Of a DNA stretch of 64,000 nt, positions 5,044 to 53,135 are shown piece by piece. Origin of the DNA: an uncultured Chitinophagales bacterium (GTDB lineage: Bacteria; Bacteroidota; Bacteroidia; Chitinophagales; UBA8649); NCBI GenBank assembly GCA_964655225.1, contig CAZZMB010000005.1:2919-66918 (forward strand), given 5' to 3'. Position numbers and translations under genes: made by a program. The first letter of the stretch is position 1. Every line of letters starts with the position of its first letter. The notes beneath the pieces were generated by a model, which saw nothing but the letters and a program-made list of their open reading frames with translations, was not told the origin of the DNA and searched no databases.

Positions 5044-5061
5044 ACCTAAATCTATTTTTGT

Positions 5062-5946: not shown

Positions 5947-5950
5947 TAGT

Positions 5951-7402: not shown

Positions 7403-7512
7403 AAGAGCGTACTAAAGTCTTTCTTCTATCCGTCTTGTAATGCGTGGTCGAGAGATAAACTTAAGATTATCGGAACAATAAAAGTGAACTTAAACTTTTC
7501 TAGAACTCTAAT

Positions 7513-9297: not shown

Positions 9298-9326
9298 TTT
9301 GTTTTATTTTACCTATCAAAGATAAG

Positions 9327-9357
9327 TAAAAAAAAGCAATGCACGCATTGCTTTTTT
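9327..9357. terminator. bidirectional terminator-like hairpin in a divergent intergenic region
   Basis: An A9 run, the stem GCAATG/CATTGC (loop CACG) and a T6 run. It lies about 35 nt upstream of the acyl-CoA dehydrogenase start codon. Confidence 0.5.
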
Positions 9358-9477
9358 GTTTTTCATGATTACCTTATCTAGCTTAATTAATTTACATAGT
9401 GCTAACTTCGTATTACTTACTTATTGGCCTTAAAATATACGATAACTTTACATAGCTTGCAATCGAGCAAACTTTCT

Positions 9478-9485
9478 TACTTTTG
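9478..9485 (+). promoter_or_regulatory. -7 promoter box TACTTTTG upstream of the TonB-dependent receptor gene
   Basis: An exact TAnnTTTG match lies about 70 nt upstream of the GTG start at 9557. Confidence 0.4.
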
Positions 9486-9556
9486 TCTGATGAATTTTAA
9501 TGGAGACATAGTTAGTTCTCCAGTTCTAGTCTAAATAATAAACATTAATTATCCGC

Positions 9557-11965
9557 GTGATTCGATTTCTTTTTCTACTTAGTATTTGTATCCCTAGCTG
9601 GATTCAAGCACAAACCTTAAAAATTGAAAATGAGGAGACGAACGAGCCCATAGAAATGGCTACGATTTCAAGCAATAGTCCTTCTTTATTTGCAATCACT
9701 AATGGAAAAGGAGAGGCTGATATTTCCGATTTTTTGGATATAGAAAATATAGAAATTAGAAGTGTAGGCTTTGAAAATTTGAGTATCTCCTTCAAGGAAA
9801 TTCAAAATCGTTATTTTGAGATTAAGCTACAGCCAAGTAGTTTTTCTTTAGATGATGTAGTGGTAAGCGCAACTAAATGGAGGCAAAGCAATAAGGAAAT
9901 ACCTGGCAAAATATCTAGTATAACTGCTAAGGATGTAGTCTTGTCAAATCCACAAACCACAGCTGATTTGTTAGCGAGTTCAGGAGAGGTATTTATCCAA
10001 AAAAGTCAGCAAGGTGGAGGGAGTCCGATGATCCGAGGTTTTTCCACTAATCGACTACTATACACAGTTGATGGGGTACGAATGAACACAGCAATCTTTA
10101 GAAGTGGGAATGTTCAAAATGTAATTTCCTTGGATGCCTTTGCTACTGAAAACACTGAAATCATGTTTGGTCCAGGTTCGGTAATTTATGGAAGTGATGC
10201 AATTGGTGGTGTAATGAGTTTCACTACCTTGACTCCTCAGTTTTCATCTACGGATAAGTTATATGCGAAGGGAAATGCATTAACTCGATTTGCCTCAGCT
10301 AACAATGAGCTAAGCGCGCATGTTGACATTAACTTAGGATGGAAGAAGCTTGCTACAATAACTAGTTTTACTTATTCGAATTTTGGTGATTTGAAGATGG
10401 GAGGTCACGGTCCTGATGAATATTTACGCCCATTTTATGTCCAAAGAAAGGATAGTGTGGATGTACTTATTACAAATGATGATCCATTAAAGCAAATACC
10501 AACTGCCTACTCGCAGATTAATGTGATGCAAAAGCTTGCATTTAAACCCAATAGAAACTGGGATCTCACCTATGCTTTTCATTATTCTGAAACTTCAAGC
10601 TATGGCCGTTATGATCGACATATTCAATATCGGAATGATTTGCCCAGAAGTGCGGAATGGAACTATGGTCCGCAAAAATGGCTGATGAATCAGTTAACAA
10701 TTGCTCATAAGAGAGCCAACATCGCTTTTGATGAAATGAATATTCGTTTGGCGCATCAGTATTTTAACGAAAGTAGAATTGATCGCGATTTTAATGAGCT
10801 AATTCGTTCTACCAAACAAGAAAAAGTTTTCGCCTACTCTGCAAACATTGATTTTGTAAAAAACTTTCTTGATAAGCACAAAGTCTTTTATGGAGTAGAA
10901 TTCGTGAATAATGTGGTGAGTTCTGAAGGAGAAATGAAGAATATCGATTCAGATGCTGCTTTTGATGCTGCTTCTAGATATCCAAATGCTGCTTGGGCTA
11001 CTGCGGGTGTTTATGCAAGCTATCAATTTAAGGCAAGTGATAAATTTAATATTCAAGCTGGTTTGAGATACGCACATTTCATAATAGAGGCTGACTTTAG
11101 AAATAACTTGGCTTATTACCCTTTGCCTCAAGCTGAAGCCAATCTAAGTGAAGGTTCCGTAACAGGTAGTTTGGGAGCTATTTATACACCAAGTTCAAAT
11201 ACGACTGTTCGCTCTAATTTCTCGACGGGTTTTCGAGCGCCTAACATCGATGATATCGGCAAGATATTTGATTCAGAACCAGGATCTGTGGTTATTCCTA
11301 ACATCAACCTAGAAGCGGAGTACGTGTACAACGGAGAAATTGGATTTGCGCAAATAGTTAAAAATAATTGGAAGATTGATGCAAGTGCTTATTACACTTT
11401 TTTGCAGAATGCTATGGTTAGACGAGACTTCAGTTTTAATGGACAAGACAGTATTGTTTACCAGGGGGAATTGAGTCAAGTACAGGCCATTCAAAATGCA
11501 GCGAATGCTCATGTTTATGGAGCACAAGTGGGTTTGGAAGCTAAACTTCCTCATGGCTTTGGTTTAAATGCGGTCTATAATTATCAGAGAGGTAGGGAGG
11601 AGTTGGCTGATGGTACACGAAGTGCCTCAAGACATGCGGCACCAATGTTTGGGGCAGCACATGTGACTTTTACACATAAGGGTTTGCTTATGGATTTGTA
11701 TACTTTGTTTAGCGGAGGGGTGAGTTTTGAAAATTTACCTGAGGAGGAAAAGAGTAAAGGATATCTTTATGCTATTGATGAGGACGGTAATCCATTTTCT
11801 CCAGCTTGGGCTACGCTTAATTTAAAGACATCTTATCGTTTAAATAAAAACTTTAGTATTAGTGCAGGCATGGAAAACATCCTAGATTTAAGGTATAAAT
11901 CATACAGCAGTGGCATTGCTGCAGCTGGTAGGAATTTTATTCTTTCAGGGAAGCTAAGTTTTTAG
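9557..11965 (+). CDS. TonB-dependent outer-membrane receptor
   Basis: It has a GTG start, a signal peptide (WIQAQ), a carboxypeptidase-regulatory-like N-domain, plug motifs (DDVVVSATK, IRGFS, DGVRMN) and a beta-barrel ending in an aromatic residue (LSF). No SusD partner is adjacent. Confidence 0.9.
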   Translation: MIRFLFLLSICIPSWIQAQTLKIENEETNEPIEMATISSNSPSLFAITNGKGEADISDFLDIENIEIRSVGFENLSISFKEIQNRYFEIKLQPSSFSLDDVVVSATKWRQSNKEIPGKISSITAKDVVLSNPQTTADLLASSGEVFIQKSQQGGGSPMIRGFSTNRLLYTVDGVRMNTAIFRSGNVQNVISLDAFATENTEIMFGPGSVIYGSDAIGGVMSFTTLTPQFSSTDKLYAKGNALTRFASANNELSAHVDINLGWKKLATITSFTYSNFGDLKMGGHGPDEYLRPFYVQRKDSVDVLITNDDPLKQIPTAYSQINVMQKLAFKPNRNWDLTYAFHYSETSSYGRYDRHIQYRNDLPRSAEWNYGPQKWLMNQLTIAHKRANIAFDEMNIRLAHQYFNESRIDRDFNELIRSTKQEKVFAYSANIDFVKNFLDKHKVFYGVEFVNNVVSSEGEMKNIDSDAAFDAASRYPNAAWATAGVYASYQFKASDKFNIQAGLRYAHFIIEADFRNNLAYYPLPQAEANLSEGSVTGSLGAIYTPSSNTTVRSNFSTGFRAPNIDDIGKIFDSEPGSVVIPNINLEAEYVYNGEIGFAQIVKNNWKIDASAYYTFLQNAMVRRDFSFNGQDSIVYQGELSQVQAIQNAANAHVYGAQVGLEAKLPHGFGLNAVYNYQRGREELADGTRSASRHAAPMFGAAHVTFTHKGLLMDLYTLFSGGVSFENLPEEEKSKGYLYAIDEDGNPFSPAWATLNLKTSYRLNKNFSISAGMENILDLRYKSYSSGIAAAGRNFILSGKLSF

Positions 11966-41694: not shown

Positions 41695-42908
41695 GTAATA
41701 TAAAGATGAATAGCATAGAAGAAGCCTTGGCTGATATACGTGAAGGGAAAGTTATCATTATTGTGGATGATGAGGATCGGGAGAATGAGGGAGATTTTGT
41801 CACTGCGGCAAGAAATGTTACCCCCGAGGTAATCAACTTTATGGCCAAGGAAGGTCGAGGTTTAATTTGCACGCCACTGACAGAGGAGCGGTGTGATGAA
41901 CTTGAGTTAGACTTAATGGTTGGAAAGAATACGGTTTTACATCAAACTCAATTTACGGTTAGTGTTGATCTAATTGGTAAGGGCTGCACGACTGGTATTT
42001 CTGTGCAAGATCGTTCTAAAACGATTCAAGCGTTAATTGATCCTAACACCAAGCCTGAAGAACTGGGGAAGCCTGGTCATATATTCCCTTTAAAGGCCCG
42101 TAAGGGAGGTGTTTTAAGGCGCGCGGGTCACACTGAAGCAGCTATTGATATTTCGCGGTTGGCTGGTTTTGAGCCAGCAGGTGTGTTGGTTGAAATATTG
42201 AATGAAGATGGAAGCATGGCGCGGTTGCCGGATCTTATGATAGTTGCCAAAAAACATAACTTAAAGATTATCTCGATAGAGGATTTAATTGAGTATCGAT
42301 TAAAACATGAAAGTCTTATTCAGGAAGAGGTGCAAATTGATATGCCAACAAAGCATGGAGAGTTTAAGTTAACAGCCTTTACCCAAATGAATACGGGAGA
42401 TTTACATTTCGCTCTTTCCAAAGGAGAGTGGAATCCAGGTGATCCTGTCTTAACTCGGGTCCATTCTTCATGTTTAACGGGCGATCTATTAGATTCTTTA
42501 AGATGTGATTGTGGGGATCAACTTTCAGCAGCCTTACAAATGATAGAGAAGGAAGGTCAAGGTTTATTGCTTTATATGCAGCAAGAAGGTCGTGGAATAG
42601 GTTTATTAAATAAACTCAGGGCTTACAAATTGCAAGAAGAAGGATTGGATACTTATGAAGCCAATGAGAAATTGGGATTTGATATGGATCAACGGGACTA
42701 TGGGGTTGGTGCGCAAATTTTAAGGCATCTAGGCGCAACAAAACTAAAGCTTATGTCCAATAACCCGAAGAAAAGAGTAGGATTGATTGGATATGGCATT
42801 GAAATAGTTGAAAATGTTTCTATTGAAATTTGTGCTAATCCGAATAATGAAAAGTATCTCCACACTAAAAAGGAGAAGGGTGGCCATGAAATCCTCAGAA
42901 ACAATTAA
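41691..42908 (+). CDS. ribBA: bifunctional 3,4-dihydroxy-2-butanone-4-phosphate synthase / GTP cyclohydrolase II
   Basis: The DHBPS motifs [10 protein letters not shown] and GHTEAA are followed by the GCH II zinc motif ([17 protein letters not shown]) and EGRGIGL. The ATG at 41691 overlaps the GT2 stop (ATGA). Confidence 0.95.
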
Positions 42909-44361
42909 GCATCCCGTTGTTGTTATTGGTGCCGGCATAGCTGGTCTAGCAGCAGCTTGTCGTTTAGCACGTCAAGGGGAAAAAGTCATTCTGTATGAAT
43001 CGGCACCCACTTTCGGGGGCAAGGTAGGTGAAATTAATAATAAGGGGTTCCGATTTGACAAAGGTCCTTCGCTGTTTACGCTTCCCGAGATATTAGATGA
43101 ATTATTTTTGGATTGCGGTAAAAATCCTCGTGATTTCTACAGCTACTATCAGCTTCCTGTGGTGACCAAGTATATCTATCCAGATGGTTTGCAACTTAAA
43201 GCATATGCCAATCTAGAAGATTTTAAGCAAGAGCTTATTAATAAATTGGGTGAAAAAAAACTGGACTTGGATCGTTTTTTCAAACATATTCAGCAGGTTT
43301 ATGATTTTGTGTTCCCCATTTTTTTAGAAAATCCTATTCGAGAATTTAAGAAGCATCTGAAAGTTTCCTGGTGGGAGTCTTTTAAGATGTTGATGAAAAT
43401 AGAAAGTTTTAAAACTTTAGATGCTAGCAACCAGTCGTGGTTTAAGCATAACAAAACGGTACAACTGTTTAATCGGTTTGCTACATATAATGGTTCTAAT
43501 CCCTATAGGGCTCCTGCCACATTAAATGTAATTCCGCATCTAGAACATAAGCTAGGTGCTTATTATGTAAAGGGAGGGATGCGTAAAGTTGTGCAAGCAA
43601 TGTATGACTTGGCGGTGGATCAAGGTGTTGAGTTTAGATTTAACTCTCCCGTGAGCCAAATCTTGATTGAAAACGGAGCGGCTAGGGGTGTAGTGATTAA
43701 TAATGCGGTGGTGCCAGCCAAAGCTGTCTTTTGTAATATGGATATCAACAAAGCATATCCTGCTTTACTGCCAAAAGAACCTCAACCAAAGCTTTTACTT
43801 AATCAAGAAAAATCTACATCGGCCTTGGTATTTTATTGGGGAATGAATTTATCTGAGACTAAGTTTGATGTGCACAATGTGCTTTTTTCTAAAGATTATA
43901 AATATGAATTTGATTGTCTTTCAAAAGGAGAAGTAAGTGATGATCCTACGGTTTATGTCTACATCAGCTCAAAAGCAGATTCAGGTGATGCCCCGAAAGG
44001 AAAAGAAAACTGGTTTGTAATGATAAATGTTCCGCCAAATAAAGGACAAAACTGGCCAGGTATTATTGAAACTGCACGGAAGAATATTCTGGATAAGTTG
44101 AACCATCATTTTGATGAAGATGTGTCAGCTTTTATTGAAATGGAAGAAGTTTTAGATCCGATTAAAATTGAACAGTTTACATCTTCTTATCAAGGAGCCT
44201 TGTACGGAAATAGCAGTAATAGTATGTTTTCTGCATTCTTAAGACACCCCCATCAAAATAAAAAGTTAAAAAGTTTGTTCTTTGTTGGAGGGAGTACTCA
44301 TCCGGGTGGAGGAATTCCTCTTTGTTTACTATCAGCTAAAATTGCAACTCATGCCTACTGA
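42886..44361 (+). CDS. crtD: CrtI-family carotenoid desaturase, CrtD (1-hydroxycarotenoid 3,4-desaturase)-like
   Basis: It has the N-terminal Rossmann motif [14 protein letters not shown]...YE...GGK, the [23 protein letters not shown] block that I recall as typical of CrtD-type members, and a C-terminal [11 protein letters not shown] motif. The start at 42886 overlaps the ribBA end by 23 nt. Confidence 0.75.
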
Positions 44362-45001
44362 CTCAATTAAAAATAGACCTTCTTTCATTGCTATGGGAGT
44401 TATTCTAATACTGCATTTTGTAGGAATTTTTGGATTGCATTCAATCTATTCGAATTATTTTGCGCTATTAACTCCACTAAACTTAATCATCACCTTTATA
44501 CTGATATTGCCTTTCAAGGAAAACACGAGCTCAAGATTGATTGTATTTTTCATCTTAGCTTTTGCTTTGGGAATGCTTGTGGAGATTATAGGCGTGCAAA
44601 CTGGAATTCCTTTTGGAAGCTATTATTATACCTCCAGAATGTCCTTAGCAGTTTGTGGAGTCCCGCTCATGATTGGAATCAATTGGTTTCTTTTAAGCTA
44701 CGGCTTAATTAGTGGCGTAAATTACCTTGCTAAAGATGTTTTTTTTATCTGGAAAGTTTTACTGTGTGCGGCTTTAATGACATTTATGGATATACTAATT
44801 GAGCCCTTTGCCATAAAGCATCAATTGTGGGTTTGGGAAAGTGCTCATGTACCTATTCAAAATTATATAACTTGGTTTGTTGTTTCTTCGATTATTTTTT
44901 TATTCGGCTTTAAAATTATTCCAAACGAAAAAAATAGGGTGGCGGCATTTACAATAGTAGTTTTTTTCTTGTTTTTTGGAGTAAACTATTTGATAAAGTA
45001 A
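44351..45001 (+). CDS. cruF: carotenoid biosynthesis membrane protein (Caroten_synth/DUF422, CruF-like 1',2'-hydratase candidate)
   Basis: About 216 aa with about 7 TM helices. It has the GVQTGIPFGSYYYT motif (G-x2-TG-x-PFG-x-Y-x-Y) and HQLWVWE. It overlaps the crtD-like stop by 11 nt and sits in carotenoid gene context. Confidence 0.65.
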   Translation: MPTDSIKNRPSFIAMGVILILHFVGIFGLHSIYSNYFALLTPLNLIITFILILPFKENTSSRLIVFFILAFALGMLVEIIGVQTGIPFGSYYYTSRMSLAVCGVPLMIGINWFLLSYGLISGVNYLAKDVFFIWKVLLCAALMTFMDILIEPFAIKHQLWVWESAHVPIQNYITWFVVSSIIFLFGFKIIPNEKNRVAAFTIVVFFLFFGVNYLIK

Positions 45002-45023
45002 TTGTTGTATATTAGTGACAAGC

Positions 45024-45890
45024 ATGGGACAGTATTCAATAAAAGACTTAGAAGTCTTATCTGGTATCAAAGCGCATACGCTGAGAATCTGGGAACAGCG
45101 CTACAAAATAGTTGAGCCCAAACGCACGGATACGAATATTCGGTATTATACGGACGAGCAGTTAAAAACTATATTAAATGTATCTGTTCTGAATGGTTCG
45201 GGGCGGAAAATTTCTAAAATAGCAAGTTTAACTTCAACAGAAATAGCACACGAAGTTTTAGCAATGAATCAAGAACACCTTAATGAGGGTGTATATATCA
45301 ATCAATTGGTTGAAGGGATGATTTGCTTAGATAAAAAGTTAATACTCAATATTCTTAAAAAATCAGAAAATTTTGATTCGCTGACAGATTTCTTTTTAAA
45401 GGTAGTTTTCCCCTTTTTAGCTAGGGTGGGTATGTTGTGGTCTTCGAATAGTATCAATCCCGGTCAAGAGCATTTTGCCTCCAACATAATTAAGAGGTTT
45501 CTACTAAATAAAATAGAAAGTCTTAGTGAGCCACATTCAGATGATCCAATGTTCTTATTGTTTCTTCCTGAGGGAGATTGGCACGAGTTAAGTCTTCTGG
45601 TAGCAGAGTATATTTTAAAGAATAATGGAAACAGAGTGCTGTATCTGGGAGCATCTGTTCCGGATAGTGATGTGAAAGCGATATTAAGTCTGACTAAAAT
45701 TGACTATTTGTTGTGCGTCAGTATCCTATCCCAGCCCTTAGAATCGATTCAGAATACAATCAACCGAATCGCTGAACTTTCTCATCCTGTTGCTCTCATG
45801 TTTGCTGGAAGAGCGTTTTATCATCCGGATTTAAAGTTTCCAAAAGAAGCTAGAATTGTATACTCCTTCGAGGATCTAGGCGCTTCTTAA
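45024..45890 (+). CDS. MerR-family, B12-binding light-responsive regulator (CarH/LitR-like)
   Basis: It has the N-terminal MerR HTH (YSIKDLEVLSGIKAHTLRIWEQRY), a W-x9-EH motif (W at 45438-45440, EH at 45468-45473) and a D-x-H cobalamin lower-ligand motif (DWH, 45576-45584). The usual Gly of DxHxxG is Ser here. Confidence 0.8.
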   Translation: MGQYSIKDLEVLSGIKAHTLRIWEQRYKIVEPKRTDTNIRYYTDEQLKTILNVSVLNGSGRKISKIASLTSTEIAHEVLAMNQEHLNEGVYINQLVEGMICLDKKLILNILKKSENFDSLTDFFLKVVFPFLARVGMLWSSNSINPGQEHFASNIIKRFLLNKIESLSEPHSDDPMFLLFLPEGDWHELSLLVAEYILKNNGNRVLYLGASVPDSDVKAILSLTKIDYLLCVSILSQPLESIQNTINRIAELSHPVALMFAGRAFYHPDLKFPKEARIVYSFEDLGAS

Positions 45891-45896
45891 CATATT

Positions 45897-45983
45897 TTGT
45901 TTAACATTGTGGAAAATTAATTAAACAAAACTCTTTGTGTTTAATTTTATTTTGTTTAGGTTTACGTCATAAAAGTTAAACAA
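45897..45983. promoter_or_regulatory. repeat-rich promoter/operator region upstream of the ECF-sigma-crtI-crtB operon
   Basis: There are five copies of the same about 8-9-bp motif: TTGTTTAAC (45897-45905), ATTAAACAA (45920-45928, inverted), GTGTTTAAT (45937-45945), TTGTTTAGG (45952-45960) and GTTAAACAA (45975-45983, inverted). The outer pair is a perfect 9-bp inverted repeat. The inner pair, ATTAAACA-N10-TGTTTAAT, is a perfect 8-bp inverted repeat. Confidence 0.45.
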
Positions 45984-45984
45984 A

Positions 45985-46518
45985 ATGATTCTAGCAAAAA
46001 ATTTCTACCAGGAAGTGAAGCCTTTTGAGCTTCTTTTAAAATCTGTTGCCTTCAACTTGACCAAGTCATCCGCAGACGCAGAGGATTTATTACAAGACAC
46101 TTATTTTAAAGCTTGTAAAAGTATAAGCAAATATCAGGAAGGAACAAACCTGAAAGCTTGGATGATCACTATAATGAAGAATACCTTCATAAATAATTAT
46201 CGCAAGCGCAAGAAAGAGCAGGAAACAATTTCCAAGCCGGGTGAAATAAATGACAGTATGTTGCATCACAGTGCAAGAGAAATAGAGCCTGGTGTACGAA
46301 TTCTTTTAAGTGAGACCATTAAAATGGCGATTGATACCCTAAAACCGGAAATGAAAATTACCTTTATGATGTATTTTCAAGGTTATAAATACCATGAAAT
46401 AGCTGAAAAATTAGACTTACCTTTGGGTACAGTAAAAAGTCGAATTTTCTTAGCGAGAAAAGAAATGGTTGCATTCCTTCAAAAAAACGGAATCCACCAC
46501 TCGAGTTTAGCATCATAA
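45985..46518 (+). CDS. ECF-type RNA polymerase sigma-70 family factor
   Basis: Region 2 (DAEDLLQDTYFKA...LKAWMITIMKNTFINNYRK) and region 4 HTH (YKYHEIAEKLDLPLGTVKSRIFLARKEM). The stop overlaps the crtI ATG (TAATG). Confidence 0.85.
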   Translation: MILAKNFYQEVKPFELLLKSVAFNLTKSSADAEDLLQDTYFKACKSISKYQEGTNLKAWMITIMKNTFINNYRKRKKEQETISKPGEINDSMLHHSAREIEPGVRILLSETIKMAIDTLKPEMKITFMMYFQGYKYHEIAEKLDLPLGTVKSRIFLARKEMVAFLQKNGIHHSSLAS

Positions 46519-47993
46519 TGAAAGATACAATTGTCATAGGAAGCGGTTTTGCAGGTTTAGCAGCTGCTTGCTATTTGGCTAAGGAAGGAAAAAGTGTTCT
46601 TGTCCTAGAAAAAAATGAAAGTATAGGTGGACGTGCCTCTTTCTTTAAGGCTGAGGGTTTTTCTTTCGACATGGGTCCGAGTTGGTATTGGATGCCAGAT
46701 GTTTTTGAGAAATTCTTCTCAGACTTTGGCAAAAAACCAAGTGATTACTACACCTTAGAGCGACTTGATCCTGGATATAAAGTATTTTATGGCAAGGAAG
46801 ATGAGTTTGAAGTCCCTGCCTCTACCAAAGATCTGGGTCTACTTTTTGAAGAATTAGAACCTGGAGCAGCAATTCAACTCGAGAAATTCCTCAAAGATGC
46901 AAAGTACAAATACGATCGTGGAATTAATGACCTCATAAATAAACCTTCGTTAAGTTTATTGGAGTTTGCTAATCCTCTTTTATTGAAGGATTTGTTTGCA
47001 TTGGATTTACTAAGTTCGATTGAAGGTTTGGTAGGTCGATACTTTAAGCATCCAAAGATTCGTAAGTTATTGGAGTTCCCTTCGTATTTTTTAGGAGCTA
47101 CTCCAAATAAAATTCCAGCACTTTACAGCTTAATGAATTTTGCAGACCTTCAATTAGGAACCTGGTATCCTATTGGTGGAATGCACGAAATCATCAAAGC
47201 TATGCATAAGGTGGCCTTAGACTTAGGGGTTGAGTTTCATACCGATACTGCAGTCGAAAAAATAAATATAGATAATGGTGTGGTAACCAGTTTAGATACA
47301 AATAACGGGGTATTTAAATCAAAAAGTGTAGTGGCAGCAGCAGATTATAACTTTGTTGAGCAAAATTTAATTCCAGCATCATACCGACAATATGACGCTG
47401 CTTATTGGGATAAGCAAATTTTGGCTCCTTCTTCCTTAATATTTTATTTAGGTTTTAATAAGAAAATCAAAAATCTGCGCCACCACAATCTATTTTTTGA
47501 TAAAGATTTCAAGGCCTTTGGGGAGGATATTTATGAGCAGCCAAAATGGCCAGAAGAACCATTGTTTTATGCTTGTGTTCCCTCAAAAACAGATGAATCA
47601 GTAGCTCCTGATGGTTGTGAAAATATTTTTCTACTTATGCCAGTTTCTCCGGATATAGAGGGTAGTGATGATATCCATACGCATTACTTGAAGCTCATGT
47701 TAGATCGAATTAGCGACTTTACCGGGGAGGAAATCAAAGCTGAAAATATTGTTTTTAAAAAGTCCTTTGCCCATCAAGAGTTTAAAGATAGATATCATGC
47801 TTTTAAAGGAAATGCCTACGGTTTAGCAAATACTTTAAAACAAACAGCTATTTTTAAGCCGAAAATGATGAACTCAAAAATTAATAATTTAGTTTATGCA
47901 GGTCAATTGACTGTCCCAGGCCCAGGAGTACCCCCCTCATTAATTTCCGGGAAATTGGCAGCTGAACTGGCTATTAAACATTGTAAAATATAG
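46518..47993 (+). CDS. crtI: phytoene desaturase (CrtI type)
   Basis: IVIGSGFAGLAAACYLAKEG...LEKN...GGRA, FDMGPSWYWMPDVFE and the C-terminal YAGQLTVPGPGVPPSLISG are classic bacterial CrtI blocks. Confidence 0.9.
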   Translation: MKDTIVIGSGFAGLAAACYLAKEGKSVLVLEKNESIGGRASFFKAEGFSFDMGPSWYWMPDVFEKFFSDFGKKPSDYYTLERLDPGYKVFYGKEDEFEVPASTKDLGLLFEELEPGAAIQLEKFLKDAKYKYDRGINDLINKPSLSLLEFANPLLLKDLFALDLLSSIEGLVGRYFKHPKIRKLLEFPSYFLGATPNKIPALYSLMNFADLQLGTWYPIGGMHEIIKAMHKVALDLGVEFHTDTAVEKINIDNGVVTSLDTNNGVFKSKSVVAAADYNFVEQNLIPASYRQYDAAYWDKQILAPSSLIFYLGFNKKIKNLRHHNLFFDKDFKAFGEDIYEQPKWPEEPLFYACVPSKTDESVAPDGCENIFLLMPVSPDIEGSDDIHTHYLKLMLDRISDFTGEEIKAENIVFKKSFAHQEFKDRYHAFKGNAYGLANTLKQTAIFKPKMMNSKINNLVYAGQLTVPGPGVPPSLISGKLAAELAIKHCKI

Positions 47994-47997
47994 ACCT

Positions 47998-48834
47998 ATG
48001 ATCTCCCTATATAACAAGTTTGCAGAAAATAGCAGCAAAAATATAACTCATCTATATAGCACATCGTTCACTTTAGGCATCAAGATGCTGGATAAAAAGT
48101 TTCATAAACATATTTATAATGTCTATGGTTTAGTGCGCTTAGCTGATGAAATAGTGGATACTTTTCATGAACAAGATAAAAACAATTTACTAGACGAATT
48201 TGAAAAGGAGACCTTTGAAGCGGTTAAGAGAGGCTTAAGTACAAATCCTATTATACATGCTTATCAAATTACAGCCAAAAAATATAACATTGACAATAGT
48301 TTGTTAGATGCTTTTTTTAAGAGTATGAAGATGGATCTGCATCAGTTAGATTACAATGCTGAGAGTTATCGCGAGTATATATATGGTTCCGCAGAGGTAG
48401 TGGGTTTAATGTGTTTAAGGATTTTCACTAATGGTGATGATGATTTGTTTCAAAGCTTGAAAGGAGGCGCCAGAGCATTGGGTGCAGCTTTTCAAAAAGT
48501 AAATTTTCTTCGAGATATGCAAGAAGATTTTGAAGAGAGAGGTAGAACTTATTTTCCTGGCGTAGACTTTTTAAATTTTACGCAGGAGCAAAAGGTCATG
48601 ATAGAACAAGATATCTTAAATGATTTTAATGCTGCAAGATTGGCGATTCTATCCCTTCCGGAATCAAGTAGATCGGGTGTTTATTTAGCTTATAAATATT
48701 ATTTAAAATTATTTAAGAAGATTAGACGAGCTCCGGCAGAGGACATACTTAAACAAAGGTTTAGGGTGCCTGATATCGAAAAAATGTACGTACTCGCCAA
48801 TACCTACTGCAGAAGTGTTATCGGTGCTTTGTAA
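47998..48834 (+). CDS. crtB: phytoene synthase
   Basis: SFTLGIKML, YGLVRLADEIVD (first Asp-rich motif), FQKVNFLRDMQEDFEERGRTYFP (second Asp-rich motif), 278 aa. Confidence 0.9.
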   Translation: MISLYNKFAENSSKNITHLYSTSFTLGIKMLDKKFHKHIYNVYGLVRLADEIVDTFHEQDKNNLLDEFEKETFEAVKRGLSTNPIIHAYQITAKKYNIDNSLLDAFFKSMKMDLHQLDYNAESYREYIYGSAEVVGLMCLRIFTNGDDDLFQSLKGGARALGAAFQKVNFLRDMQEDFEERGRTYFPGVDFLNFTQEQKVMIEQDILNDFNAARLAILSLPESSRSGVYLAYKYYLKLFKKIRRAPAEDILKQRFRVPDIEKMYVLANTYCRSVIGAL

Positions 48835-49027
48835 GCAGGTTTGCTCAATTCATGCCCCGCTATAAATTATTGCGCTTACTTATCAGCTAATGATTCTAAA
48901 AAATCCTCGACTTGAGTAACATCTGCCACCTGTTTTAGTCTAAGGAATAAAGCCTTTTCAGCATAACTAATCAGTTATCGTTTAAAATGAATTAATTTTT
49001 GTTGCATTGTTTCAAACCGAAACGTTT

Positions 49028-49714
49028 TCACTTGGATTTGAAGTACTCGAAAGTCATGATGTTTAAGGATATCAGATTAAATGAATATGAAAAATCTTCG
49101 ATGGGGATAGTAAATATTCGAGCTCCTAAATTTTCAGCATCATTATACCATACGATGGGACTAGCTGTAAACATGCCTGTAAGAAATCCATTGACCAAGA
49201 TAAAGGGTAGCAAAGAAAGTAAAAATGCAAATATCAGGTAGACTAAATTATTAGGAGTTTTATAGCTGATATAAATAAGGATTAATGCGGTAAAACTAAA
49301 TGTTACGGTTGTGTAAAGCCGTTCGGTAAATACAAAAGCAAGCAAAGCAAAAACTAAGGCCAATACCAATAAGCCTCGATTAAGATACCTTGACGCTTTA
49401 ATCTTGAAATAACTTAAGGTCACTTCATAAATAAACAAACATGCAAATGGAATGATGAAGAAGAATCCACACTCTTCATAAGGTAAATTGAAAAATTCAG
49501 GCTTTAAATGATACTTTTCACTGAACCCCCATACTCCTAGGCGGGTATATAAAATATCTCCTACAATAAACAAGGAAGCCACTAGCGGTATACTTTTTAC
49601 CAAGGAGGGAAAGTATTGTTTGAAATTGACTTTTTTATCAAAACTCAATATCAAAGGAAAGAATATACTACCCACCAAAGCTAATAAATAATAATAATGA
49701 CTATCTATATTCAT
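49028..49714 (-). CDS. crtY: fused heterodimeric-type lycopene cyclase (CrtYc-CrtYd fusion)
   Basis: The 228-aa polytopic protein has two homologous halves. Each carries the P-x-E-(E/D) motif of lycopene-cyclase-domain proteins (LPYEECGFFF and IPIEDFSYSF). Confidence 0.7.
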   Translation of the reverse strand: MNIDSHYYYLLALVGSIFFPLILSFDKKVNFKQYFPSLVKSIPLVASLFIVGDILYTRLGVWGFSEKYHLKPEFFNLPYEECGFFFIIPFACLFIYEVTLSYFKIKASRYLNRGLLVLALVFALLAFVFTERLYTTVTFSFTALILIYISYKTPNNLVYLIFAFLLSLLPFILVNGFLTGMFTASPIVWYNDAENLGARIFTIPIEDFSYSFNLISLNIMTFEYFKSK

Positions 49715-51201
49715 GCCAATAATCCTTTAGTGGGTACCTGCACCAATCCCTTTTTTTGAACACCTTCATTTTCAAGTATGTGGTTGGCTGCGAGCACTCC
49801 TGATACATAAGCTCCTTCCATTAACATCGCACAATTATCCATTTTTACCCAGTCACCTGCATAAAACAACCCTGGAACTTCTGTTTCAACAGTCGGCCGT
49901 TCTTTATATAGACCGGTATGGAAGGCAGAGAAATCATTTCTGAACTGATAGTATTCATGCACAATCTTAACTCCCTTAAGTTCAGGGAAGTAGTGATACA
50001 TTTCATTGATTAACTCTTTTCGACAAGTCTCTTTGTCCATTCCCTCAGGAACAGCATAACTGTGTAATTCGAAGATTCCGCCCTTATTTTTTTCACTCCA
50101 AGCTGTCGATTCTTTTTCCATCTTATGGTAGAGGGTTACGCTATCCAGACATTTTAATCTATCCGTAAAAATGAAGAATGGTAGGCTTTGATCCGCCTCA
50201 AATTTATCTGTCCACAAGCGGATTACTGCATAATGACCAGAATTATTCAAGCCAGCAGCTTGACGGTTTAATGTATCATAAGACTCAAGTCCTACAGAGT
50301 TTCCTATAATATGCTTTGTAGCATTAACATCTGTTGCCATGATACAATAATCGTACTCTTGCCCCATTAATTCAAACTTTGAATCCTTGTATGATACTTT
50401 ATCAATGCCCTGGTTCAAATGTATTCTTACCCCTTGGTCCTTCATAAAAGTGATGCAATAATCGATGAAGCTAGTTTGGAAATCACTGTCTAACACGTCA
50501 TAAATTAAGCCTTTATCGTTACTGAGAAAATAGAAGTGAAAACCCTTGATTAATTCGGCCATTGACATGTTTTCGGGTTCTGCAAAAAATGCACGAGCAA
50601 AAGAGTTAAATACCAAGCGCATTTTCTTAGGCATAAATGTTCGTTTTGCAAATTGTGCAAAATTTTCTTCATCAAACTTTTTAAAAGTGGTGTTAAAATC
50701 AAATTGAAGTAAACCTAAGAAGGGCATACTAAATGGACTGATAAGGGTTAGCCAGTTAAAAACTCCATATTTTTTTAAATCAAGTACATTGAGTCCTGGC
50801 GTAGTCTCTACATCTTTGAATCCTTGTTTTTGGTTGTTTTCAAAAAGTAAAACATAGTCATCAATTGGAATAAGATGCTTGTGTGCTCCAATTTGTTTTA
50901 AGAATTCCAATAAATTAAAATACTGCCGGAAGAATGCATGAAATCCGTGCTCGGTTCGAAGGATTTCCCCATTGGATTCAAACTCCCATGAACCAACTTT
51001 ACCTCCAAGGAAATGGGCTTTTTCAAACAGGTGCACATCAAAGCCTTTTTCTGCTAAGGCTGAAGCACTTGCAATACCCGCAATTCCTCCTCCGATAATG
51101 GCTACCTTCTTTGGCTTGGTCAATTTCTCTGCTTTTGAGAAATCTACAGTGCTTAGAGGTACTTTATAGTTTTGTAATCTTTTTTTAATCCAATTTCTCA
51201 T
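49711..51201 (-). CDS. FAD-dependent amine-oxidase-fold enzyme, PDS/ZDS/CrtU-like (candidate carotene ring desaturase/methyltransferase)
   Basis: VAIIGGGIAGIASASALAEKGFDVHLFEKAHFLGGKV dinucleotide fold. EHGFHAFFRQYFNLLEFLKQIG resembles the plant-type PDS block (GLHIFFGAYPN...ELG). The C-terminal FYAGDWVK...MLMEGAYVSGVLAA resembles the PDS/ZDS end. ATGA overlap with the cyclase gene. The specific function is an inference. Confidence 0.5.
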   Translation of the reverse strand: MRNWIKKRLQNYKVPLSTVDFSKAEKLTKPKKVAIIGGGIAGIASASALAEKGFDVHLFEKAHFLGGKVGSWEFESNGEILRTEHGFHAFFRQYFNLLEFLKQIGAHKHLIPIDDYVLLFENNQKQGFKDVETTPGLNVLDLKKYGVFNWLTLISPFSMPFLGLLQFDFNTTFKKFDEENFAQFAKRTFMPKKMRLVFNSFARAFFAEPENMSMAELIKGFHFYFLSNDKGLIYDVLDSDFQTSFIDYCITFMKDQGVRIHLNQGIDKVSYKDSKFELMGQEYDYCIMATDVNATKHIIGNSVGLESYDTLNRQAAGLNNSGHYAVIRLWTDKFEADQSLPFFIFTDRLKCLDSVTLYHKMEKESTAWSEKNKGGIFELHSYAVPEGMDKETCRKELINEMYHYFPELKGVKIVHEYYQFRNDFSAFHTGLYKERPTVETEVPGLFYAGDWVKMDNCAMLMEGAYVSGVLAANHILENEGVQKKGLVQVPTKGLLA

Positions 51202-52198
51202 TGCTTCTATTGAAGTTTTTGTTCCACAACTGCATAAAGCTGATTGTGGGTTCGTCTCCTTTTATAATTAAATCAGTTAATTTTTCTTTGTCATGCCAGT
51301 GCCTGTTGCTTTCTAGAAAAACAATATCTTCTTCAACAATCTGATCACTTTTTCTTTTCATAAACCACTTTGCAAAGGGAGGGTTAAATCGAAAAATATT
51401 TTTCCAGGCTGTAATTTGAATCATCATCAGCTCATTTTCATCAATCTCATAAAAATGCTCATAAATGACTAGTCGTCTTGCTGGGAAATGAAGATGTTTT
51501 GGAAAATAAGAGTCTAGCATACTACTGTGGGGGTACCAGAATGCAAATTTAGTCTGAATATGTTTCTCCCAACCAAAATATATTTGTTCGAACAAATTAC
51601 TGTTGTTTATGCGCTGATAACTGCCATGCAGGCTTTTGTCCTTTATATCTATACTATATTCTGTTTTTGGTTCCCTCAATTTACCCAGTAAGGTATTAAT
51701 ACTGTGCTTATGCACATGATTGATATGTTGGGCGTCAAACAAACTTTCAGCGACCAGCTTAATATTAGCTTTAAGGGTGTGCCGGTTAAAGACATATGGG
51801 TAGTTGTCTAATTCAGGCATTTCGGGTAAAATAGCTTCCTGCATTTTACTCTCTTCACCAAAATAGACCCAGTAAGCCTTGTACTTATATTGTATGGGGT
51901 AAGCCTTTACACAAGCAGAGCTTGGTATGCTTTGATCATCCTCCAACATAGGAATATGCACGCAGGCACCAGAAGAGTTAAATTCCCAGCCATGGTAACC
52001 GCATTTTAGCTTACCCTCATGAACTTCACCATTTGAAAGGTGAACGTTTCGATGACAGCATCGATCTTCAAGCGCAGAAACCTTTCCTTCTGTATTCTTA
52101 AAAAGAACAATTTCTTCTCCTACTATTTTACGTTTAAGCAGCTTATTTCCTTTTAACTCCCTATCGAAGCAGGCGATATACCATTGATTTTTAATCAT
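51185..52198 (-). CDS. Rieske [2Fe-2S] non-heme-iron oxygenase (PaO/Tic55/KshA-like alpha subunit)
   Basis: Rieske motif CCH-x16-CGYH and mononuclear iron motif DAQHINHVH (D-x2-H-x4-H). It overlaps the downstream flavoprotein gene by 17 nt. Confidence 0.85.
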   Translation of the reverse strand: MIKNQWYIACFDRELKGNKLLKRKIVGEEIVLFKNTEGKVSALEDRCCHRNVHLSNGEVHEGKLKCGYHGWEFNSSGACVHIPMLEDDQSIPSSACVKAYPIQYKYKAYWVYFGEESKMQEAILPEMPELDNYPYVFNRHTLKANIKLVAESLFDAQHINHVHKHSINTLLGKLREPKTEYSIDIKDKSLHGSYQRINNSNLFEQIYFGWEKHIQTKFAFWYPHSSMLDSYFPKHLHFPARRLVIYEHFYEIDENELMMIQITAWKNIFRFNPPFAKWFMKRKSDQIVEEDIVFLESNRHWHDKEKLTDLIIKGDEPTISFMQLWNKNFNRSNEKLD

Positions 52199-52352
52199 TT
52201 CTATTAATTAACAAATCTGTCAATAAATTGTTGATTTACAGTTTAATTTCTAATCCCAAGTCGCAGGGAAATAAACAAGTCTGTTCTGGGGTTTTTAATC
52301 CCCCGGAGCATTCAAGTTCTTACTTTTGTATTTAAATTTTTGATACTCTATT

Positions 52353-53135
52353 CTAATCCGCAGTGAATTGGCTTGCCTCAAGTTCTTCATCAAGAATATT
52401 CTCTATATGCACTAAACTTTCATACAATTGCTCATAGCTGTCAATAACAAAGTATTGTTTTTGAAAATCATGCTTGTAGAAAGGGGTTTGCACGATATGG
52501 CGGACATCATAAGGGTGTCTTGGAACATCTTTGTCATGCACTGCAAAATCAGATTCTCCAATTGAAGATAATATTCCAGCTCCGTATATTTTTATCTGCT
52601 CTTCTTCATTGATTAGGCCAAACTCAACAGTGAACCAATATAATCTGCTGATCATTTCAACCGCTTGAGGATTTTCAATATGCTTTAGAGCAATTTTAGC
52701 TAAACCTTGAACAAAATCAACGAAACTTTGAATACTCAAAAGGGGAACATGAGCAAAAACATCATGAAACATGTCGGGCTCTTCCAAATACTCTAACTCA
52801 TTCTTTTTCCTTATCCACGTTGTAACCGGAAATCGTCTATTCGCTAAATATTGAAAAAAAGGTTTGTCTGCGATCAAACCAGGCACTACGAAAGTCCTCC
52901 AACCTGTAGCTGCTATTAGGTTTTGATTGACCGTTTTTATTTGAGGAATTTTATTACTTTCAAATCCACATAATTTTAGTCCTTTAAAAAAATCCTTGGT
53001 GGCATTTTCTTTAAGTTCAACCATTTGCCGTGAATAAAGAGTATTCCAAACTTCATGATCATCGGCTGAATATTTATCATATTCTTGAATCAATTTGTTT
53101 GCAGGCAGATCATAGGGTTTTTTATTCTCTAACAT
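52353..53135 (-). CDS. phhA: phenylalanine 4-monooxygenase (bacterial aromatic amino acid hydroxylase)
   Basis: EEPDMFHDVFAHVPLL (iron His pair), YWFTVEFGL (iron Glu), 260 aa. Confidence 0.9.
   Translation of the reverse strand: MLENKKPYDLPANKLIQEYDKYSADDHEVWNTLYSRQMVELKENATKDFFKGLKLCGFESNKIPQIKTVNQNLIAATGWRTFVVPGLIADKPFFQYLANRRFPVTTWIRKKNELEYLEEPDMFHDVFAHVPLLSIQSFVDFVQGLAKIALKHIENPQAVEMISRLYWFTVEFGLINEEEQIKIYGAGILSSIGESDFAVHDKDVPRHPYDVRHIVQTPFYKHDFQKQYFVIDSYEQLYESLVHIENILDEELEASQFTAD

What the first reader, a model, noticed from the sequence alone, without database searches (positions are those of the whole stretch)
49028..52198. A Rieske oxygenase and a PDS/CrtU-like flavoprotein are translationally coupled to a fused lycopene cyclase: candidate ring-aromatising or ring-oxidising carotenoid branch
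Three minus-strand ORFs are fused into one unit. The Rieske gene overlaps the flavoprotein gene by 17 nt, and the flavoprotein and cyclase genes share an ATGA overlap at 49711-49714.

The first ORF has a complete Rieske cluster motif (CCH-x16-CGYH) and a mononuclear-iron motif (DAQHINHVH). The second is an amine-oxidase-fold FAD enzyme. Its internal block (EHGFHAFFRQYFNLLEFLKQIG) and C-terminus (AGDW...MEGAYVSG) resemble plant/cyanobacterial PDS/ZDS-type enzymes rather than CrtI. The third is a CrtYc-CrtYd fusion cyclase with two PxE(E/D) motifs.

A normal CrtI (46518-47993) is already present for the four desaturation steps, and a CrtD-like enzyme (42886-44361) covers 3,4-desaturation. This is therefore a third, different flavoprotein attached to ring formation.

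The known PDS-related enzymes that act after cyclisation are CrtU/CruE, which convert beta rings to aromatic phi/chi rings in Chlorobi, actinobacteria and cyanobacteria. As far as I recall, the cyanobacterial synechoxanthin pathway pairs CruE with an oxygenase (CruH) of the Rieske/PaO-like type; that recollection needs checking. I am not aware of such a pair being characterised in Bacteroidota. The Rieske enzyme has no dedicated reductase or ferredoxin in the operon.
Basis: partly seen in the sequence, partly recalled or inferred. Interest (0 to 1): 0.7.

Follow-up and report, generated by a model that had tools for sequence, protein, structure and literature searches.

The report
CrtU-like ring desaturase with Rieske partner
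An uncultured marine Bacteroidota bacterium couples a lycopene cyclase to a relative of the enzymes that make aromatic carotenoid rings and to a dedicated iron-sulfur oxygenase, which suggests that common non-photosynthetic bacteria may make aromatic pigments now used as fossil markers for sulfur phototrophs.

Summary
Three minus-strand genes overlap: Rieske oxygenase 51185-52198, FAD enzyme 49711-51201 and fused CrtYcd cyclase 49028-49714.

The flavoprotein belongs to the compact CrtU/CruE superfamily of aryl-ring synthases. It scores 239 bits against Streptomyces CrtU but only 59-110 bits against PDS, ZDS or HpnE. It forms a third major clade, equidistant from the two characterised aromatising clades. 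This clade contains many cyclase::FAD fusion proteins.

The Rieske protein is a complete alpha3-type monooxygenase with all ligands invariant. It lies next to the flavoprotein in 61 of 73 related loci.

A CrtU-Rieske link appears to be general. The Rieske domain is inserted in green-sulfur, purple-sulfur and cyanobacterial enzymes. It is fused or adjacent as CrtV (Rieske+DUF5914) in actinobacteria and some Myxococcota, and adjacent here. The Rieske protein lacks the PaO domain I expected for CruH, so the closer analogue is the uncharacterised Streptomyces CrtV.

The most likely function is aromatisation of the beta ring of a monocyclic carotenoid, followed by oxygenation. The chemistry is untested, and every carrier found is an uncultured MAG.

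Verdict: a new variant of a known kind, of moderate to high interest.

The parts
51185..52198 (-). Rieske non-heme-iron monooxygenase (337 aa), first gene of the three-gene unit
   Evidence: Pfam Rieske at 84 bits, with a weak VanA_C match. Cluster ligands, the E-x3-D-x2-H-x4-H motif and D291 are invariant in 25 homologs down to 40% identity. The AF2 model has pLDDT 88.9. Foldseek top hits are SxtT/GxtA, DdmC, guaiacol O-demethylase, NdmA and KshA, with TM 0.75-0.83.
49711..51201 (-). CrtU/CruE-superfamily FAD-dependent carotenoid ring desaturase (496 aa). It overlaps the Rieske gene by 17 nt.
   Evidence: Amino_oxidase at 109 bits. 32% identity and 239 bits to Streptomyces CrtU. 33% identity to Thiodictyon CrtU. 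Its own clade has 98% bootstrap support inside the CrtU/CruE radiation.
49028..49714 (-). Fused CrtYc-CrtYd lycopene beta-cyclase (228 aa), with an ATGA overlap onto the flavoprotein gene
   Evidence: Two Lycopene_cyc stretches at 113.7 bits. CarR_dom_SF at 74.9 bits. The same domain is fused N-terminally to the flavoprotein in about a dozen representative clusters.
47998..48834 (+). Phytoene synthase CrtB, convergent with the three-gene unit
   Evidence: SQS_PSY at 136.8 bits.
46518..47993 (+). Phytoene desaturase CrtI
   Evidence: NCBIfam CrtID at 698.7 bits (cutoff 640) and crtI_fam at 409 bits.
45985..46518 (+). ECF sigma factor inside the crt cluster
   Evidence: Sigma70_r2 and r4_2 domains. 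sigma70-ECF at 80.6 bits.
45015..45890 (+). CarH-like MerR/B12-binding regulator (probable light control)
   Evidence: MerR_1 plus B12-binding_2 and B12-binding domains. The CarH model scores 88 bits, below its cutoff.
44282..45001 (+). CruF-type carotenoid 1',2'-hydratase. The ORF is given from the TTG at 44282. The real start is probably the ATG near 44351.
   Evidence: Caroten_synth at 94 bits. CruF models score 33-66 bits.
42886..44361 (+). 1-hydroxycarotenoid 3,4-desaturase CrtD
   Evidence: NCBIfam NF042421 at 509.4 bits (cutoff 500).

Best explanation
The three genes form a ring-formation and ring-modification module of a light-regulated carotenoid cluster in an uncultured Chitinophagales bacterium.

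Proposed pathway:
1. CrtB and CrtI make lycopene.
2. The fused CrtYcd cyclase closes one end to a beta ring. CruF and CrtD modify the open end.
3. The 496-aa flavoprotein belongs to a third, uncharacterised clade of the CrtU/CruE family. It desaturates that beta ring, most likely all the way to an aromatic (phi- or chi-type) trimethylphenyl ring with a methyl shift, as its characterised relatives do.
4. The translationally coupled 337-aa Rieske non-heme-iron monooxygenase is its dedicated partner. It adds oxygen to the new aryl end group (ring C-H to phenol, or methyl to hydroxymethyl/carboxyl).
5. The Rieske enzyme plausibly draws its electrons from the reduced flavin of the desaturase, since no reductase is ever encoded nearby.

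The predicted product is an oxygenated 1'-hydroxy-3',4'-didehydro-chlorobactene-like pigment.

Shown here: gene structure, family placement, intact catalytic sites, conserved synteny and gene fusions. Inferred: aromatisation, the site of oxygenation and the electron route.
For: Family placement:
- The flavoprotein aligns end to end with Streptomyces CrtU and Thiodictyon CrtU.
- Only 134 representative clusters (50% identity) reach E<=1e-30 in 1.84 billion proteins, so the superfamily is compact.
- In an NJ tree its clade has 98% support. It is sister (86%) to a group that includes the actinobacterial CrtU clade. Both are nested in the grade of Rieske-inserted CrtU/CruE forms.
- It is as close to each characterised clade (31% and 30%) as those clades are to each other (32%). 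Its clade keeps 89% of their conserved columns.

Action right after cyclisation:
- About a dozen representative clusters are CrtYcd::FAD fusion proteins.
- The window genes overlap.
- 44 of 80 loci hold other crt genes.

Partnership with the Rieske protein:
- It is adjacent in 61 of 73 loci, and the reverse test gave 3 of 3.
- Loci that lack it carry a CrtV-type Rieske gene instead.
- CrtU::CrtV fusion proteins exist (P0289, P0313, P0389).
- A Rieske domain is inserted in the Thiodictyon, Calothrix, Chlorobiales and Prochlorothrix enzymes.

The Rieske protein is catalytic:
- All ligands are invariant.
- Its fold matches alpha3 monooxygenases.

Absence of the usual ring modifiers:
- No CrtZ or CrtW motif occurs in the window or in the 80 loci.
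- Complete clusters contain only the Rieske, FAD and methyltransferase genes as ring modifiers.

The accompanying methyltransferase is UbiE/MenG-like, a family that C-methylates aromatic quinol rings.
Against: - No enzyme of this clade, and no organism carrying it, has been characterised. All carriers found are MAGs.
- To my knowledge, no aromatic carotenoid has been reported from Bacteroidota or Ignavibacteria.
- Identity to characterised enzymes is only about 30%.
- The tree is neighbour-joining, lacks true PDS/ZDS outgroups and is poorly resolved inside the clade.
- From my own knowledge of the literature, actinobacterial CrtU alone aromatises beta-carotene in E. coli. A Rieske partner is therefore not needed for aromatisation as such.
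- Spirochaetaceae members of the clade have no Rieske gene within 8 kb.
- The electron-coupling idea rests only on the absence of a reductase and on fusion or insertion patterns.
Confidence: 0.55

Rival explanations
1. The flavoprotein aromatises the ring, but the Rieske protein adds nothing to the pigment. It serves only as the electron outlet of the desaturase, passing electrons from FADH2 through the [2Fe-2S] cluster and the mononuclear iron to O2. This would be an aerobic replacement for the Rieske domain inserted in the enzymes of anaerobic phototrophs. The product would be a plain aryl carotenoid (hydroxy-chlorobactene-like).
For: - The characterised green-sulfur, purple-sulfur and cyanobacterial forms carry only a Rieske domain, with no catalytic iron domain. 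This argues that the cluster's basic role is electron transfer.
- The short clades that lost the insertion have a separate Rieske protein instead.
- No reductase gene is conserved nearby.
Against: - The full mononuclear-iron site is invariant across the family.
- The fold matches substrate-hydroxylating monooxygenases.
- I know of no Rieske oxygenase that acts purely as an oxidase.
- Spirochaetaceae members manage without any Rieske gene nearby.
Confidence: 0.15
2. The pair modifies the beta ring without aromatising it. For example, the flavoprotein introduces one ring double bond (a 3,4-didehydro-beta ring) and the Rieske enzyme hydroxylates C-2, C-3 or C-4. The pair would then replace the missing CrtZ/CrtW and give saproxanthin- or flexixanthin-like or novel monocyclic xanthophylls.
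For: - No CrtZ or CrtW is found in the window or in the related loci.
- By my knowledge, the known pigments of related cultured groups (Saprospiraceae, Ignavibacterium) are hydroxy or keto monocyclic carotenoids. Ignavibacterium album is reported to make 1'-OH-torulene and deoxyflexixanthin (PMC3362086).
- The clade is distinct and about 30% identical to characterised enzymes.
- The first step of the CrtU/CruE mechanism is itself a 3,4-desaturation (PMC10604819).
Against: - Both flanking characterised clades aromatise, although they are just as divergent from each other.
- 89% of their conserved positions are kept.
- The associated UbiE-type methyltransferase and the CrtT/CrtV parallels with the Streptomyces isorenieratene cluster point to aryl chemistry.
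Confidence: 0.22
3. The Rieske and flavoprotein genes act on a non-carotenoid lipid (a quinone, sterol or hopanoid-like molecule) and only happen to lie near crt genes.
For: - The best NCBIfam hits are HpnE for the flavoprotein (110 bits) and the sterol methyl oxidase SdmA for the Rieske protein (109 bits, N-terminal part only).
- In about 45% of loci no other crt gene lies within 8 kb.
- In one Flavobacteriales sublineage the pair sits beside fatty-acid-desaturase and hydroxylase-family genes.
Against: - All those scores are far below the cutoffs (283 and 600 bits).
- Fusions of the lycopene-cyclase domain to the flavoprotein tie it directly to carotenoid rings.
- The pair is embedded in complete crt clusters in several phyla.
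- The flavoprotein is much closer to CrtU than to HpnE.
Confidence: 0.03

Closest known systems
Actinobacterial CrtU (Streptomyces griseus/anulatus isorenieratene synthase) with its neighbours CrtT (UbiE-type methyltransferase) and CrtV (Rieske+DUF5914)
   Same: - The flavoprotein is short, with no Rieske insertion. It is 32% identical over 457 aa.
- It is encoded with a lycopene cyclase.
- A separately encoded Rieske non-heme-iron protein of the same size (338 aa against 337 aa) lies in the cluster.
- A homologous CrtT-like methyltransferase (32-36% identity) accompanies the pair in Ignavibacteria, Myxococcota and some Bacteroidota.
- Both clusters use a MerR/B12 regulator plus ECF sigma factor for regulation. 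For Streptomyces this is from my own knowledge.
   Different: - The flavoprotein forms a separate clade with 98% bootstrap support.
- The Rieske partner has a VanA-like catalytic domain and does not match DUF5914 in Pfam. It aligns with CrtV only from the Rieske domain through the iron motif.
- The cyclase is the fused CrtYcd type and not CrtY.
- The window has no CrtT.
- CrtT and CrtV are themselves functionally uncharacterised. CrtV is still annotated 'putative methylesterase' (PMC8539372).
CrtU/CruE of green sulfur bacteria, purple sulfur bacteria (Thiodictyon, okenone chi-ring synthase) and cyanobacteria (synechoxanthin CruE)
   Same: Same superfamily, at about 31-33% identity. They act on a beta ring made by a lycopene cyclase and are associated with a Rieske [2Fe-2S] centre.
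   Different: - Those enzymes are 620-655 aa, with the Rieske domain inserted inside the flavoprotein and no mononuclear-iron domain.
- Here the Rieske centre sits on a separate, complete oxygenase.
- The hosts here are non-phototrophic.
CruH (synechoxanthin C-18 methyl hydroxylase/oxidase)
   Same: Conceptually, an oxygenase that works after an aryl-ring synthase (PMC7395447).
   Different: - From my own knowledge, CruH is a PaO/LLS1-type Rieske protein. This could not be verified here.
- The window protein has no PaO-domain match and is structurally of the SxtT/DdmC/VanA type.
- To my knowledge, cruH is not adjacent to cruE in cyanobacteria, whereas here the two genes overlap.
Alpha3 Rieske monooxygenases SxtT/GxtA, DdmC, guaiacol O-demethylase, NdmA/B and KshA
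   Same: Same fold and size, with TM 0.75-0.83. Same cluster and iron ligands.
   Different: Only 13-23% identity and unrelated substrates. Those enzymes use dedicated reductases or ferredoxins, and none is encoded here.

Membership tests
CrtU/CruE carotenoid aryl-ring synthase superfamily | PDS-type amine-oxidase FAD fold with an N-terminal dinucleotide-binding motif | tested here: met
   Amino_oxidase at 109 bits over residues 40-476, and NAD_binding_8 at 57 bits.
CrtU/CruE carotenoid aryl-ring synthase superfamily | Closer in sequence to characterised CrtU/CruE than to PDS, ZDS or HpnE | tested here: met
   239 bits to Streptomyces CrtU and 117+115 bits to Thiodictyon CrtU. By comparison: rice PDS 59 bits, and the PDS, ZDS and HpnE models 70, 91 and 110 bits.
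CrtU/CruE carotenoid aryl-ring synthase superfamily | Phylogenetic placement inside the radiation of characterised enzymes | tested here: met
   In the NJ tree the clade is sister (86%) to a group that includes the actinobacterial CrtU clade, and both are nested in the Rieske-inserted grade. Caveat: distance method only, and the outgroup is of unknown function.
CrtU/CruE carotenoid aryl-ring synthase superfamily | Genomic or physical coupling to a lycopene beta-cyclase | tested here: met
   ATGA overlap in the window and CrtYcd::FAD fusion proteins.
CrtU/CruE carotenoid aryl-ring synthase superfamily | Catalyses conversion of a beta ring to a phi or chi ring (two desaturations plus methyl shift) | not testable with these tools
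   Needs heterologous expression and pigment analysis.
Green-sulfur/purple-sulfur/cyanobacterial CrtU/CruE subtype | Rieske [2Fe-2S] domain inserted within the flavoprotein | tested here: not met
   The 496-aa protein has no Rieske motif or insertion. The insertion is present in Thiodictyon, Calothrix, P0291 and P0306.
CruH / PaO-LLS1-type Rieske oxygenases | C-terminal PaO domain (PF08417). This is my own knowledge of the family, not verified here. | tested here: not met
   The only Pfam matches are Rieske and a weak VanA_C match at E<=0.01.
CruH / PaO-LLS1-type Rieske oxygenases | Direct sequence similarity to a bona fide CruH | not tested
CrtV (Rieske + DUF5914) of actinobacterial isorenieratene clusters | DUF5914 C-terminal domain | tested here: inconclusive
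   No Pfam DUF5914 match, and BLASTP similarity covers the Rieske domain only. However, hhalign gives 96.9% probability over 145 columns that include the D-x2-H-x4-H iron motif.
CrtV (Rieske + DUF5914) of actinobacterial isorenieratene clusters | Encoded with, or fused to, a CrtU-type flavoprotein | tested here: met
   The window-type and CrtV-type Rieske genes are alternatives in the same module. CrtU::CrtV fusions exist.
Alpha3 Rieske non-heme-iron monooxygenases | C-x-H...C-x2-H cluster ligands, the D-x2-H-x4-H motif plus a carboxylate iron ligand, and the Rieske + SRPBCC-like catalytic fold | tested here: met
   The ligands are invariant. The AF2 model has pLDDT 88.9. Foldseek gives TM 0.75-0.83 to SxtT, DdmC and 7qwt.
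SdmA sterol 4beta-methyl monooxygenase | NCBIfam equivalog score of at least 600 over the full length | tested here: not met
   109 bits, residues 4-180 only.
HpnE hydroxysqualene dehydroxylase | NCBIfam equivalog score of at least 283 | tested here: not met
   109.9 bits, residues 33-296.
Fused CrtYc-CrtYd lycopene cyclase | Two lycopene-cyclase domains with PxE(E/D) motifs in one polypeptide | tested here: met
   Two Lycopene_cyc stretches at 113.7 bits. LPYEE and IPIED are present in the translation.

The most novel reading that the evidence does not exclude
The CrtU-like desaturase and the Rieske monooxygenase form a self-sufficient redox couple. The electrons removed from the beta ring during aromatisation pass from FADH2 through the Rieske cluster to the oxygenase iron. 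There they pay for hydroxylation of the ring just made, with no NAD(P)H reductase needed. This module would make abundant aerobic heterotrophs (freshwater and marine Chitinophagales and Flavobacteriales, Ignavibacteria, some Myxococcota) unrecognised producers of aryl and phenolic carotenoids. These bacteria would then be an extra source of chlorobactane- and isorenieratane-type fossils, which are currently read as evidence of sulfidic photic zones.
Probability: 0.2. Interest if true: 0.85.

Novelty: new variant of a known kind. Interest (0 to 1): 0.62.

Why it matters
Aromatic carotenoids and their fossil forms (chlorobactane, isorenieratane, okenane, renierapurpurane) are key biomarkers for anoxygenic sulfur phototrophs and photic-zone euxinia. 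Cyanobacteria have already complicated that reading (PMC7395447).

About 440 species-level genomes carry relatives of this flavoprotein. The 80 best are all uncultured heterotrophic lineages. If these relatives also aromatise rings, the biomarker record needs further re-evaluation, and a new class of phenolic or oxygenated aryl carotenoids may await discovery.

Separately, Rieske centres associate with CrtU-type enzymes again and again: inserted, fused or adjacent. This recurrence raises a testable mechanistic question about how these desaturases dispose of their electrons. It also gives a functional lead for the long-unexplained Streptomyces crtV and crtT genes and for DUF5914.

Tried and rejected
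- Sigma-70 promoter and terminator scan of 48700-52500: 14 promoter-like sites found against 14 expected, and 1 terminator-like site against 2.4 expected. It was uninformative, and Bacteroidota promoters differ from this consensus anyway.
- Search for a cultured carrier whose pigments might be known: homolog lists, the genome scan, three cluster look-ups and five contig look-ups returned only MAGs or metagenomes.
- Literature: no paper in the held library treats this pair in Bacteroidota, DUF5914 or CrtV function. Graham & Bryant 2008 is not held, so the nature of CruH could not be verified.
- CrtZ/CrtW motif scans of the window and the 80 loci found nothing. The regular expressions are from memory and were not validated on reference sequences.
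- The idea that the FA_desaturase and FA_hydroxylase genes next to the pair in some loci are CrtW, CrtR or CrtZ was rejected. They score 18-30 bits against cutoffs of 350-475, and their best match is GntB-like.
- HpnE and SdmA identities were rejected on score.
- The first tree attempt with Biopython timed out. I replaced it with my own NJ and bootstrap script.

Full report
**1. Observation**

The window carries three minus-strand ORFs:
- Rieske protein, 51185-52198, 337 aa.
- FAD enzyme, 49711-51201, 496 aa.
- Fused lycopene cyclase, 49028-49714, 228 aa.

The first two overlap by 17 nt. The last two share an ATGA.

Pfam and NCBIfam confirm the folds. They also identify the convergent plus-strand cluster:
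- CrtD (509 bits, cutoff 500).
- CruF.
- A CarH-like MerR/B12 regulator.
- An ECF sigma factor.
- CrtI (699 bits, cutoff 640).
- CrtB.

None of the three focal proteins reaches an equivalog cutoff. The flavoprotein's best models are HpnE, ZDS and PDS (110, 91 and 70 bits). The Rieske protein's best model is SdmA (109 bits, N-terminal half only). No CrtZ or CrtW signature occurs in the 64-kb window.

**2. What the flavoprotein is**

A tblastn search against annotated plasmids supplied reference genes:
- The Streptomyces anulatus crtY-crtT-crtU operon, beside crtE-I-B-V.
- The Thiodictyon syntrophicum Cad16 FAD gene beside crtY. This is the experimentally assigned chi-ring synthase of okenone biosynthesis (PMC10604819).
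- A Calothrix CruE-like gene.

The window protein aligns over its whole length with Streptomyces CrtU (32% identity, 239 bits). It aligns in two blocks with Thiodictyon CrtU (33-34%). Rice PDS gives only 59 bits.

An exhaustive HMMER scan of 1.84 billion representative proteins found only 134 clusters at E<=1e-30, so the superfamily is compact.

A neighbour-joining tree of 88 full-length members, with 100 bootstraps, resolves three groups:
- A grade of 620-655-aa enzymes. It includes Thiodictyon, a Chlorobiales protein and cyanobacterial proteins.
- An actinobacterial CrtU clade (98% support).
- A clade (98% support) that contains the window protein.

The window's clade is sister (86%) to a group that includes the actinobacterial clade. 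The window protein is as similar to each characterised group (31% and 30%) as those groups are to each other (32%). Its clade keeps 89% of the 61 columns conserved in both.

By phylogenetic bracketing, ring aromatisation is therefore the most likely activity. It remains an inference.

**3. Context and fusions**

A scan of species-representative genomes found 440 relatives. The best 80 are all MAGs of Chitinophagales, Flavobacteriales, Sphingobacteriales, Ignavibacteria, Calditrichota, Spirochaetaceae and Myxococcota or 'Deltaproteobacteria'.

In these loci the flavoprotein usually lies in or beside crtI/crtB/crtYcd/crtD/cruF genes. Complete eight-gene clusters contain no other ring-modifying enzyme. 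No CrtZ or CrtW motif is found in any of the 80 loci.

About a dozen representative clusters of the window's clade are single polypeptides with an N-terminal CrtYcd cyclase domain fused to the flavoprotein. This ties the enzyme directly to the ring the cyclase makes.

**4. The Rieske partner**

Among 73 loci with enough upstream sequence:
- The Rieske gene is directly upstream in 41, overlapping by 7-13 nt in 16.
- It is one gene away in 19.
- It is elsewhere in the locus in 1.
- It is absent in 12.

Three distant Rieske homologs (42-50% identity) chosen for the reverse test all sit next to the flavoprotein.

The family keeps the cluster ligands, E151/D155/H158/H163 and D291 invariant down to 40% identity. 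A confident AF2 model (pLDDT 88.9) superposes over its full length on the alpha3 monooxygenases SxtT/GxtA, DdmC, guaiacol O-demethylase, NdmA and KshA (TM 0.75-0.83). It is therefore a complete oxygenase and not merely a ferredoxin. It has no PaO-domain match.

**5. A general CrtU-Rieske link**

Pfam shows a Rieske domain inserted in the middle of Thiodictyon CrtU and the Calothrix CruE-like protein. The same holds for the Chlorobiales and Prochlorothrix representatives. Synechocystis CruE is described as enclosing a Rieske centre (PMC6553663).

Streptomyces CrtU lacks the insertion. Its cluster instead encodes CrtV, a 338-aa Rieske+DUF5914 protein. CrtV is still annotated 'putative methylesterase' (PMC8539372).

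CrtV-type genes replace the window-type Rieske gene in the 'Deltaproteobacteria'/Thermodesulfobacteriota loci L066, L067 and L070. CrtU::CrtV fusion proteins exist (P0289, P0313, P0389).

Profile-profile comparison aligns the two Rieske partner types from the cluster domain through the D-x2-H-x4-H iron motif at 96.9% probability. DUF5914 proteins are therefore also oxygenase-like.

A UbiE/MenG-type methyltransferase, 32-36% identical to Streptomyces CrtT, lies between or beside the pair in Ignavibacteria, Myxococcota and some Bacteroidota. It is fused to CrtU in Actinopolymorpha. The window lineage lacks it.

**6. Mechanism proposed**

- CrtB and CrtI give lycopene.
- CrtYcd closes one end. 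CruF and CrtD process the other end, so the pathway is monocyclic.
- The CrtU-like enzyme desaturates, and probably aromatises, the beta ring.
- The Rieske monooxygenase oxygenates the aryl end group.

No reductase or ferredoxin is conserved near the pair in any locus. Rieske centres are repeatedly inserted into, fused to or coupled with the flavoprotein. It is therefore plausible that the reduced flavin of the desaturase feeds the Rieske cluster. This last step is speculative.

Three rivals remain:
- The Rieske protein is only an electron outlet (0.15).
- The pair performs non-aromatising ring desaturation and hydroxylation in place of CrtZ/CrtW (0.22).
- The substrate is not a carotenoid (0.03). 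The cyclase fusions argue strongly against this.

**7. Comparison with the known, and novelty**

The flavoprotein is a member of the CrtU/CruE superfamily but forms a separate, uncharacterised clade. It fails the defining feature of the phototroph subtype, the inserted Rieske domain.

The Rieske protein is not demonstrably CruH-like. Its nearest functional analogue is the equally uncharacterised CrtV.

Database pipelines already label these proteins 'isorenieratene synthase' through KO transfer. However, I found no experimental work and no cultured carrier.

I rate this a new variant of a known kind, with interest about 0.6. It would matter for how aromatic carotenoid biomarkers are interpreted and for understanding how CrtU-type enzymes handle electrons. 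The chemistry is unproven.

**8. Limits**

- The tree is distance-based, and its outgroup is of unknown function.
- The CrtZ/CrtW motif scans rely on patterns from memory.
- The nature of CruH and the sufficiency of CrtU alone in E. coli rest on my own knowledge.
- All related sequences come from metagenomes.

Noticed in passing
window 45015-46518: A CarH-like MerR/B12-binding regulator and an ECF sigma factor sit inside the crt cluster between cruF and crtI. By my own knowledge, this is the light-induction logic known from Streptomyces (LitR/LitS) and Myxococcus (CarH/CarQ). The same pair recurs in related Chitinophagales and Ignavibacteria loci.
   Followed up: partly
window 46518-47993: CrtI passes the NCBIfam 'bifunctional phytoene desaturase/3,4-desaturase CrtID' equivalog cutoff (698.7 against 640), although a separate CrtD that passes its own cutoff is also present at 42886-44361.
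   Followed up: no
window 52353-53135: A phenylalanine 4-monooxygenase gene (279 bits, cutoff 247) lies directly upstream of the Rieske gene on the same strand. It keeps that position in the closest relatives L001-L003. It is probably unrelated to the pigment pathway.
   Followed up: no
P0278 (833 aa) and P0295 (852 aa): Two further fusion architectures occur in the CrtU superfamily. P0278 has a C-terminal membrane domain with fatty-acid-hydroxylase-type histidine boxes. P0295 has a C-terminal UbiA-type prenyltransferase-like domain (NDLHDRASD). Both were read by eye only.
   Followed up: no
L094 8501-9523; L096 8905-10742; also L021, L022, L026: In one Flavobacteriales sublineage the Rieske-flavoprotein pair lies outside any crt cluster. 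It is followed by FA_desaturase-family (best match GntB-like, 94-98 bits) and FA_hydroxylase-family (OlsE-like, 52 bits) genes. These are not CrtW, CrtR or CrtZ, and their substrate is unknown.
   Followed up: partly
L094 11642-13017 (runs off the locus): A gene of 529 aa or more combines FAD/pyridine-nucleotide oxidoreductase domains with a Rieske domain. It lies 3 kb downstream of the pair. It could be a reductase-type partner, but it is not conserved elsewhere.
   Followed up: no
L059, L060, L071, L075-L077 (Spirochaetaceae MAGs), around 5000-10800: Members of the window's flavoprotein clade occur here without any Rieske gene within 8 kb. By eye, the flanking genes look like a GT2 glycosyltransferase and a PlsC-type acyltransferase (CruC/CruD-like). 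This suggests a glycoside-ester carotenoid pathway.
   Followed up: no
L084-L091, for example L084 14340-14564: A conserved 74-aa ORF with no Pfam or NCBIfam match lies between cruF and crtI in freshwater Bacteroidota crt clusters.
   Followed up: no
L083 8858-10291 (Calothrix plasmid): A carotenoid cleavage oxygenase (RPE65 family, 401 bits) lies directly downstream of the plasmid-borne CruE-like gene. This hints at aromatic apocarotenoid formation.
   Followed up: no
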